Source: Parachlamydiales bacterium
GTDB lineage: Bacteria; Chlamydiota; Chlamydiia; Chlamydiales; JAJFMK01
DNA: 64,000 bases
Reading direction: 5' to 3'
Assembly (NCBI GenBank): GCA_963765145.1
Contig: CAVXVG010000005.1
Coordinates: 32,001-96,000 of the forward strand
The position numbers were made by a program, and so were the translations under genes. Within the stretch, counting starts at the first letter, position 1; each line of letters starts with the position of its first letter. The notes beneath the pieces are model-generated. The model made no database searches, was not told where the DNA came from, and was given only the letters and a program-made list of their open reading frames with translations. Of the stretch, positions 30,888-31,811 are shown piece after piece.

Positions 30888-31811
30888 CTAAATTTCGTTG
30901 AAACATACGGACGGATCCCACTCTTCTGCAAGAGGAGGAGGGCTTGGGGGCAAGATCTCTCCATAATAATCCATTTCATTGTCTATCGCAGGAGATTGTA
31001 GATTAGATGGATATGTGTTCTCTTGGTCTGAAGGTAAGTGTTCATACGGTGAGGTAACTAGGTCTTCGAGAGTATTTGACGGTACTCTTGGAAGAGGGTT
31101 TGCTAGGGAAGAGGGAATGGCGGTGTGCTTTTTTTGCAAATCATCCATTATTGGAAGGCAGATTTTGGAGATTTTTTGAGTATCGCTATTAGGATTCCTA
31201 TGAGACTTTTTTTTGGAAGTGTTGCGGTGATGGGGGCGTGTTTTGGCTTGCGCTCTTAGTATTCTTTGGTAACATGCATCACAGATTTTAGCAGTCGTAT
31301 CTTTAGGGTTGGAATGCCAGCGGTGAGTGTTAGCAGTGCGTGAGCAGGTGGAACACGCCACTTTGGGTTGGGCTCTCCTTATTCTTTCATAGCATGTGTG
31401 ACAGACTTTAGCAGTCCTATCTTGAGGGTTGGGACGCCAGTAGCGAGAGTGTGTGTTTGAGCAGTTGGAACACGCTTCAGGCTTCGGTAGAAATTTAGGC
31501 CCACGTTTATTAGGAGCTTTAGCCAACGAAACGGGCTGTTTACTTTCGCTACTATTTTGAACCGGATTTTCGTGAAGAGGTCGCGGTTGATCTTTAGTAA
31601 CTTCAACATGTGAAATAGTTGGTTTACCACGACGTTCTGCGAATGTTTTAGCGTCAAAAACTTTTACAACAATGTTTGCACTTCTTTGTGCAACGGACTG
31701 ATGACTTTCGGCACTTGCTGTATTTCTGTATTTTGGTGGAAGTCGAAATTCGTCTGAGATCGCAGGAAATTTGAAACTAATTTTGCTGCCAAATGTTGTG
31801 TTTAATAACAT
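30888..31811 (-). CDS. Orphan protein with two tandem GATA-like Cys4 zinc fingers
   Basis: CSNC-x19-CHTC and CSTC-x20-CDAC, each with W-[RH]-x-N-P; basic patch after the fingers. Confidence 0.7.
   Translation of the reverse strand: MLLNTTFGSKISFKFPAISDEFRLPPKYRNTASAESHQSVAQRSANIVVKVFDAKTFAERRGKPTISHVEVTKDQPRPLHENPVQNSSESKQPVSLAKAPNKRGPKFLPKPEACSNCSNTHSRYWRPNPQDRTAKVCHTCYERIRRAQPKVACSTCSRTANTHRWHSNPKDTTAKICDACYQRILRAQAKTRPHHRNTSKKKSHRNPNSDTQKISKICLPIMDDLQKKHTAIPSSLANPLPRVPSNTLEDLVTSPYEHLPSDQENTYPSNLQSPAIDNEMDYYGEILPPSPPPLAEEWDPSVCFNEI

What the first reader, a model, noticed from the sequence alone, without database searches (positions are those of the whole stretch)
30888..31811. Bacterial protein with two eukaryote-like GATA zinc fingers: candidate host-nucleus effector
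Seen: CSNCSNTHSRYWRPNPQDRTAKVCHTC and CSTCSRTANTHRWHSNPKDTTAKICDAC, each followed by Y[EQ]RIxRAQ. A basic patch (RPHHRNTSKKKSHR) follows, then an acidic/Pro-rich tail; the N-terminus looks disordered. Established: GATA fingers are C-x2-C-x17-20-C-x2-C with a central Trp and a basic tail, and are a eukaryotic DNA-binding fold. Inference: a secreted transcription-factor mimic with DNA-binding domain, NLS and activation-like tail.
Basis: partly seen in the sequence, partly recalled or inferred. Interest (0 to 1): 0.75.

Follow-up and report, generated by a model that had tools for sequence, protein, structure and literature searches.

The report
Chlamydial GATA zinc-finger array protein
An environmental chlamydia encodes a protein with two eukaryote-type GATA-like zinc fingers, one of an apparently undescribed family of finger arrays whose predicted DNA-touching residues change from finger to finger, so these bacteria likely inject custom DNA-reading proteins to reprogram host genes.

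Summary
The 307-aa ORF and both C4 fingers are real, intronless and chromosomal in a Chlamydiota MAG; an independent contig shows the same gene order. Pfam GATA alone is weak (14 bits, cut-off 26.8). The family profile (GATA-3, E 4e-7) and the predicted fold (top hits all GATA) place the fingers in the GATA fold. The protein belongs to a family of tandem arrays, mostly of 2–6 fingers, found in at least 6 of 400 other phylum genomes; 9 more carry canonical GATA fingers. Between fingers of one protein, the positions equivalent to GATA3's contact residues diverge most (10-position test P=1.4e-5; held-out P=0.014). Relatives are fused to SET methyltransferase domains. The WGATAR-reading residues are mostly lost, so it probably reads another sequence. 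Secretion, nuclear import and DNA binding are untested; its N-terminus and NLS are unremarkable, and strain-level pN/pS is about 1. The scan earlier noted GATA-like fingers in archaeal viruses, a CPR bacterium and a fungal nuclease, but not this family. Not found in 8 literature searches.

The parts
30888..31811 (-). Gene for the 307-aa two-finger GATA-like protein (P0001); single copy in the genome, no intron
   Evidence: nine alleles, all 307 aa, with the 8 finger Cys and 2 Trp invariant
31482..31811 (-). N-terminal region, residues 1-110: no signal peptide or transmembrane stretch; would hold the type III secretion signal (inferred). The extreme N-terminus is shared with the probable orthologue P0059
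   Evidence: maximum Kyte-Doolittle (19-residue) 0.61; composition score at the 75-80th percentile of genome ORFs; alignment
31476..31520 (-). Basic lead-in (residues 98-112, containing KRGPK) resembling the RGRK/RGPK lead-in of canonical chlamydial GATA proteins
   Evidence: motif in 4 of 18 canonical ORFs; pattern chosen after seeing the sequences
31368..31472 (-). Finger 1 (residues 114-148), C-x2-C-x19-C-x2-C-Y with Trp in the GATA register, then a helix
   Evidence: rmsd 1.3-1.8 A over 35-38 residues to GATA18, AreA, GATA4, GATA-1
31248..31355 (-). Finger 2 (residues 153-188), tandem duplicate of finger 1 with 7 of 8 contact-equivalent residues changed
31197..31238 (-). Basic patch (residues 192-205): possible NLS or DNA-backbone/minor-groove tail (inferred)
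   Evidence: 10 K/R and 1 D/E in residues 186-216; no match to the simple monopartite NLS pattern
30891..31079 (-). Acidic, Pro- and aromatic-rich tail (residues 245-307): candidate transcription activation domain (inferred)
   Evidence: 13 D/E, 0 K/R, 10 P, 6 F/W/Y; basic-then-acidic tail in 12 of 18 family members with a tail of 70 aa or more
31893..33604 (-). Upstream context: folD-apbE housekeeping pair; in same-genus G002 it is followed by an ABC transporter, not by this gene
29243..30682 (+). Downstream context: putP-like sodium/solute symporter, convergent (a 64-codon ORF lies between)

Best explanation
This is a chromosomal gene of an environmental chlamydia for a protein with two GATA-fold zinc fingers that is likely injected by the type III system into the host cell, where it would bind host DNA at a non-GATA sequence set by finger-specific contact residues and likely alter transcription through its acidic tail. 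Shown: the gene and its fingers, their GATA kinship, the patchy spread of the family in Chlamydiota, the excess divergence at contact-equivalent positions, and SET-domain fusions in relatives. Predicted: the fold. Inferred: zinc and DNA binding, secretion, nuclear import, activation, and the host, which is unknown.
For: Family profile against PDB: the top six hits are GATA proteins (GATA-3 E 4e-7, GATA-4 1e-6, GATA-1 2e-5). The model has pLDDT 85; the top 5 Foldseek and top 6 VIA hits are all GATA. 38 of 58 homologues hit Pfam GATA at E<=0.01, 19 over the cut-off. Bona fide GATA fingers are present in Chlamydiota: 10 of 400 genomes over the cut-off, 0 of 14 controls. A canonical-finger pattern across 185,579 prokaryote genomes gave 9 loci, 7 titled as chlamydiae. 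In 130 fingers of 48 proteins, eight GATA3-equivalent contact positions are the top 8 of 23 variable columns for within-protein divergence; the 10-position set from PMC8611019 gives P=16/1,144,066. At DNA level, 12 repeat pairs at least 70% identical show pN 0.35 at contact codons, 0.15 elsewhere and pS 0.14; this gene's two fingers show 0.48, 0.19 and 0.29. Finger arrays are fused to SET in P0040, P0074, P0075 and chlamydial genome G267, and the same SET subfamily also carries NUMOD3-like and MH1-like modules. SctV and SctJ are present. Family N-termini are S/T/P/N/Q-rich (42 proteins against 1,507 genome ORFs, P=2e-10, crude score).
Against: The query alone scores below the Pfam GATA cut-off, and DUF7573 and FYVE score higher. 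No Foldseek hit reaches E<=0.001 and VIA Z is only 4-5, a range the tool calls inconclusive. The hypervariability replicates only modestly in 8 held-out proteins (10-position P=0.014, 8-position P=0.054; one is an allele of the query) and is not significant in the five C-x5-H proteins (P=0.35 and 0.08). Columns and proteins are not independent, and a surface that binds varied proteins or RNA would look the same. Against strain L080 the gene has 4 synonymous and 16 non-synonymous changes (pN/pS 1.2), so purifying selection is not shown. SctN was not found in this 84.8%-complete MAG. The query's N-terminus and NLS are unremarkable.
Confidence: 0.6

Rival explanations
1. A secreted effector whose GATA-fold fingers bind host proteins or RNA rather than DNA, for example as a decoy for GATA cofactors.
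For: GATA fingers also bind proteins: the top VIA rows include GATA18-SAP05 and AreA-NmrA complexes. The paper list used for contact residues mixes protein-DNA and protein-protein contacts. The WGATAR residues are lost.
Against: Basic helix and tail; fusion of relatives to SET beside other DNA-binding module types and to an HNH-like nuclease (P0032, my reading of the motif).
Confidence: 0.17
2. A bacterial cytoplasmic regulator or adaptor built from a bacterial treble-clef finger (McsA, ClpE or ClpX type), not secreted.
For: The family profile weakly hits the ClpE zinc domain (E 1.4e-3) and a chlamydial McsA (E 3.3e-5); ClpX ZBD is at Z 3.7; McsA shares the CxxCY ending.
Against: GATA outranks these in sequence and structure; hhalign gives 86% for canonical GATA against 24% for McsA (McsA was a single sequence, so the comparison is uneven). 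Distribution is patchy, and acidic tails and SET fusions point to chromatin.
Confidence: 0.1
3. A recently acquired remnant of a selfish nuclease's DNA-recognition array, drifting without function.
Against: Nine of nine alleles are intact with invariant ligands; no nuclease or mobile gene beside it; a probable full-length orthologue at about 30% identity shares both termini (P0059); contact positions diverged preferentially between its two fingers.
Confidence: 0.1
4. Eukaryotic contamination or misassembly.
For: The genome is a MAG (3.3% contamination); the fold is eukaryotic.
Against: Intronless, on a 158-kb contig among bacterial genes; independent contig L080 aligns ungapped over 2,232 bp at 94.6% across apbE, the gene and the end of putP; a public-run contig bridges the gene and apbE; GC 43.4% against 43.7% for the genome.
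Confidence: 0.01

Closest known systems
Eukaryotic GATA transcription factors (Pfam PF00320; GATA-1/3/4, AreA, plant GATA18)
   Same: C4 treble-clef finger with Trp 11-12 residues after the first Cys, hairpin and helix; two tandem fingers followed by a basic tail; best sequence-profile and structure hits.
   Different: Spacer of 19-20; CxxC-Y instead of CNAC-G; contact residues mostly not conserved and hypervariable; finger period mostly 38-43 aa, with arrays of up to 6 or more fingers in relatives; encoded by a bacterium; below the Pfam cut-off.
TAL effectors of Xanthomonas (PMC3759964 and PMC4508525, search listing and abstract starts only)
   Same: Works-like model: a type III-delivered repeat array with polymorphic positions, NLS and acidic activation tail that retargets host transcription.
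   Different: Unrelated fold; the query has only two repeats; no code, secretion or activity shown here.
C2H2 zinc-finger arrays and PRDM9 (recalled)
   Same: Homogenised scaffold with diversified base-contact residues; relatives join an array to a SET/PR-type domain.
   Different: GATA fold rather than C2H2; bacterial; the query itself has no SET domain.
Chlamydial NUE and Legionella RomA/LegAS4 SET nucleomodulins (PMC7279228, passages read)
   Same: Precedent for type III-secreted nuclear effectors in Chlamydiae; the SET domain of relative P0040 weakly matches the LegAS4 model (38 bits against cut-off 550).
   Different: The passages read mention no DNA-reading finger array on them; the query is not a methyltransferase.
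McsA / ClpE / ClpX zinc-binding treble clefs
   Same: C4 treble-clef topology; weak profile hits.
   Different: Lower scores than GATA; no UVR or AAA+ domains in the query.

Membership tests
GATA-type zinc finger (PF00320) | C-x2-C-x17-20-C-x2-C with Trp in register | tested here: met
   x19 and x20 spacers; Trp at +11 and +12
GATA-type zinc finger (PF00320) | Score above Pfam gathering cut-off (26.8 bits) | tested here: not met
   14 bits whole protein, 18.8 for the finger region; 19 of 58 homologues pass
GATA-type zinc finger (PF00320) | GATA treble-clef fold | tested here: met
   Predicted model only: top 6 VIA hits GATA, rmsd 1.3-1.8 A over 35-38 residues in four of them, Z 4-5; top 5 Foldseek hits GATA, E about 2e-3
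GATA transcription factor (WGATAR binder) | Conserved base-reading residues (GATA3 T326, L327, R329, N339, A340, L343, K346, L347) | tested here: not met
   Finger 1 keeps only R126 (=R329); finger 2 only A179 (=A340); numbering from PMC8611019 mapped on the GATA-3 sequence printed
GATA transcription factor (WGATAR binder) | Sequence-specific DNA binding | not testable with these tools
   needs SELEX, PBM or EMSA
Type III-secreted nucleomodulin | Type III system in the genome | tested here: inconclusive
   SctV and SctJ over cut-off; SctN not found in the 84.8%-complete MAG
Type III-secreted nucleomodulin | N-terminal secretion signal and translocation | tested here: inconclusive
   No Sec or TM segment; composition score 75-80th percentile for the query, strongly shifted for the family; no dedicated predictor available
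Type III-secreted nucleomodulin | Nuclear localisation | not testable with these tools
   Basic patches present; simple monopartite pattern not matched
TALE/C2H2-like modular DNA-reading array (works-like) | Polymorphism concentrated at contact positions among repeats | tested here: met
   weaker in held-out set; not significant in the C-x5-H subgroup
TALE/C2H2-like modular DNA-reading array (works-like) | Residue-to-base code | not testable with these tools
   no binding data
McsA/ClpE zinc-binding domain | Best profile or structure match, with UVR or AAA+ partner domains | tested here: not met

The most novel reading that the evidence does not exclude
Environmental chlamydiae have evolved a third natural, re-programmable DNA-reading repeat system, after C2H2 arrays and TALEs. 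It is built from GATA-fold fingers whose contact residues encode the target, and is deployed as injected host transcription factors and, in SET fusions, as sequence-targeted histone methyltransferases resembling PRDM9.
Probability: 0.3. Interest if true: 0.93.

Novelty: new variant of a known kind. Interest (0 to 1): 0.8.

Why it matters
GATA fingers are regarded as eukaryotic regulators, and bacterial effectors that act as sequence-specific host transcription factors are known mainly from plant pathogens (TALEs; recalled). This family would extend that strategy to Chlamydiae and probably to protist hosts. It makes a long-standing question testable: how do chlamydial symbionts reprogram host transcription? 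The hypervariable contact positions also supply natural variants from which a GATA-fold recognition code could be read.

Tried and rejected
No paralogue in the own genome. Not found with P0001 or P0059 as query in same-family genomes G001-G003 (78-94% complete). The word-index homologue search found only the close allele. The ESM Atlas gave leads under 0.9 only and no usable structure match. No NCBIfam hit for the query and no phage match. Scans with P0005 (genomes) and P0015 (metagenomes) found nothing. The range of the tandem class outside Chlamydiota was therefore not surveyed; only the canonical class was scanned across all genomes, with one strict pattern. No RNA holder listed. Promoter and terminator scan at chance level. 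A weak hit in a small-genome (1.2 Mb) same-order genus was McsA and was rejected. The 447-bp Streptomyces contig with a canonical finger was set aside as likely contamination (inferred). The script stopped before the older-repeat subset, so that subset was not tested. Literature: 8 searches, of which 15, 25, 44, 73, 75 and 94 addressed novelty; none listed a paper on GATA fingers in chlamydiae. PMC9666466 and PMC7279228 have no 'GATA' in their main text. Subscription papers and supplements (such as eukaryotic-domain tables) were not seen and could list such domains. No tree was built: 35-residue units are too short to fix a donor.

Full report
Observation. The ORF at 30888-31811 (-) encodes 307 aa with two C4 fingers, C-x2-C-x19-C-x2-C (residues 114-140) and C-x2-C-x20-C-x2-C (153-180). 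A basic patch and an acidic, proline-rich tail follow. The fingers are a 117-120-bp tandem duplication. They are far beyond chance: this is the only one of 18,656 six-frame ORFs with two GATA-register motifs, and 0 of 20 shuffled ORF sets gave two. A leave-out HMM of 92 finger units from other proteins scores it at E 2e-17.

The gene is bacterial. It lies without introns between apbE-folD and putP on a 158-kb contig of a 2.68-Mb MAG. An independent metagenome contig aligns ungapped over 2,232 bp at 94.6% across apbE, the gene and the end of putP, and a public-run contig bridges the gene and apbE. Same-order genomes hold proteins labelled Chlamydiales or Parachlamydiaceae, so the organism is an environmental chlamydia. 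Its host is unknown; the runs laid on the locus are peat and soil metagenomes. Nine alleles are all 307 aa with invariant Cys and Trp. In the single-contig same-genus genome G002, folD-apbE is followed by an ABC transporter, and the gene was not found with this query in G001-G003, so it is lineage-specific.

Is it GATA? On its own it scores only 14 bits on PF00320 (cut-off 26.8). A search of 1.84 billion representatives gave 58 homologues, nearly all tandem arrays of the same finger; 38 of them hit GATA at E<=0.01 and 19 pass the cut-off. A profile of 42 of these sequences retrieves GATA-3 (E 4e-7), GATA-4 and GATA-1 first from the PDB, with the ClpE zinc domain seventh (1.4e-3). The AlphaFold model of residues 105-200 (pLDDT 85) has two hairpin-helix modules. 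The top 5 Foldseek and top 6 VIA hits are GATA proteins, four of them at 1.3-1.8 A over 35-38 residues, although E-values (about 2e-3) and Z (4-5) are modest. The fold is therefore GATA-like. The WGATAR-reading residues are not kept: only 1 of 8 GATA3-equivalent positions matches in each finger (numbering from passages of PMC8611019, mapped on the GATA-3 sequence printed). It is not a member of the WGATAR-binding class.

Distribution. In 400 scored phylum genomes, PF00320 passes the cut-off in 10 and in 0 of 14 controls. Nine hold canonical CNxCG fingers, including a single-contig and a two-contig genome. The tandem-class profile matches 15 of 400 including G000. On inspection G200, G233, G267, G318, G332 and G387 hold true arrays; four were canonical-class genomes, one hit was McsA, and three (G244, G284, G396) were fragmentary or unresolved. 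A strict canonical pattern over 185,579 prokaryote genomes gave 9 loci: 7 chlamydial, 1 gammaproteobacterial MAG and 1 tiny contig. Eukaryotic relatives of the tandem class exist (P0024 is fungal; others judged by eye), so a host or mobile-element origin is plausible, but no donor is shown.

A recognition-code signature. I compared divergence between fingers within a protein with divergence between proteins, for 130 fingers of standard geometry in 48 proteins. Allelic duplicates and two divergent arrays (P0004, P0049) were left out. Repeats are homogenised at scaffold and loop positions (ratio 0.37-0.68) but not at W-2, W-1, W+1, C3+1, C3+2, C4+2, C4+5 and C4+6 (0.81-0.94). These eight correspond to GATA3 T326, L327, R329, N339, A340, L343, K346 and L347. 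I noted the idea before the test but fixed the eight-position set. The fair test is the paper's ten positions, which add R330 and Y344: P=16/1,144,066, and 18/646,646 without the probable eukaryote and virus proteins. The five C-x5-H proteins do not show it (P=0.35). Eight held-out proteins give P=0.014 (ten positions) and 0.054 (eight), and one of them is an allele of the query. At DNA level, 12 pairs at least 70% identical from 5 genes give pN 0.35 at contact codons, 0.15 elsewhere and pS 0.14; the query's two fingers give 0.48, 0.19 and 0.29. Pairs and columns are not independent, so the P values overstate. This is the pattern known from C2H2 arrays and TALEs (recalled).

Pointers to the host nucleus. 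The genome has SctV and SctJ; SctN was not found in the incomplete MAG. Family N-termini are enriched in S/T/P/N/Q (P=2e-10, crude score), and 12 of 18 long tails run basic then acidic. The query's own N-terminal score is ordinary, and its basic patch misses a simple NLS pattern. The strongest pointer is domain fusion. P0040 joins fingers to a SET domain, and chlamydial genome G267, P0074 and P0075 have long-loop finger arrays on the same SET subfamily, which elsewhere carries NUMOD3-like or MH1-like modules. Chlamydia trachomatis NUE is a type III-secreted nuclear SET effector (PMC7279228, passages).

Against. Between strains the gene shows 4 synonymous and 16 non-synonymous changes (pN/pS 1.2) with pS about 12-fold below its flanks. 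This fits a recent sweep or transfer with adaptive change, but also neutral drift. No expression, secretion or binding data exist, and a variable protein- or RNA-binding surface would give the same sequence signature.

Mechanism and verdict. The most likely reading (0.6) is an injected, GATA-derived, sequence-specific host DNA-binding regulator with a non-WGATAR target and an acidic activation tail. Rivals are a protein- or RNA-binding effector (0.17), a bacterial treble-clef regulator (0.1), a drifting mobile remnant (0.1) and an artefact (0.01). Six novelty-directed full-text searches (listings and abstract starts seen) showed no paper on GATA fingers in chlamydiae; subscription literature and supplements were not seen. 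Earlier scan notes (unchecked) describe GATA-like fingers in archaeal viruses, a CPR bacterium, a protist and a fungal GIY-YIG nuclease, so the fold outside eukaryotic transcription factors is not unique to chlamydiae; none covers this family. I rate it a new variant of a known kind, interest 0.8.

Noticed in passing
L082:1474-3726(-) (G267); P0040, P0074-P0081; L083, L084: A chlamydial SET-domain subfamily carries interchangeable N-terminal DNA-binding-type modules: GATA-like finger arrays (including long-loop C/H variants), NUMOD3-like repeats and an MH1-like domain. It resembles PRDM9 in layout and deserves its own study.
   Followed up: partly
L002-L010, L020-L024, L027-L030: Canonical GATA proteins in 9 of 400 phylum genomes, often in tandem paralogue clusters. 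8 of 18 ORFs have an I-x-Y/F-L-L-N-like motif, mostly near the C-terminus (shuffle mean 0.19; pattern chosen post hoc). Likeness to eukaryotic co-repressor motifs is recalled and untested.
   Followed up: partly
window 30778-31877 against L080: The gene sits in a tract of low strain divergence (pS 0.019) inside flanks with pS 0.22-0.26, suggesting a recent gene-specific sweep or transfer between diverged populations.
   Followed up: partly
L077:1808-2626: A Gammaproteobacteria MAG has a canonical GATA finger protein beside mnmA on a 125-kb contig.
   Followed up: partly
P0024, P0033, P0052, P0043, P0057: Eukaryote-like relatives with the same arrays (P0024 is named as Peniophora) have N-termini that look like organelle transit peptides (by eye only).
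   Followed up: no
P0032: About eight GATA-like fingers fused to an HNH-like C-terminus resembling giant-virus endonucleases (recalled likeness).
   Followed up: no
P0011, P0012, P0016-P0018: Variant arrays in which the first knuckle is C-x5-H instead of C-x2-C; P0012 begins with a Sec-like signal peptide.
   Followed up: partly
window 33848-35737 (-): vWA-domain protein with an S/P/N-rich N-terminus, missing at this site in G002: a second effector-like insertion flanking folD-apbE.
   Followed up: partly
G000:C24 (L079:910-2544): The own genome encodes a MYND finger + SET protein (SMYD-like layout), another candidate nuclear effector.
   Followed up: partly
window 19390-27215 (-): Five Legionella-OMP-family porin paralogues; one is split into two overlapping ORFs (24737-25297 and 25269-25946).
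   Followed up: no
window 37842-39158 (+): Reverse transcriptase ORF of group II intron type.
   Followed up: no
window 45921-49026 (-): Ku and split LigD non-homologous end-joining operon.
   Followed up: no
window 3692-9915, 12032-13441, 44318-45880, 55791-56723, 57239-58201, 61115-62491: Several large ORFs with no Pfam hit at E<=1e-5.
   Followed up: no
window 31841-31874: A 34-bp AT-rich stretch upstream of the gene also matches unrelated contigs in two runs; may be low-complexity chance.
   Followed up: no
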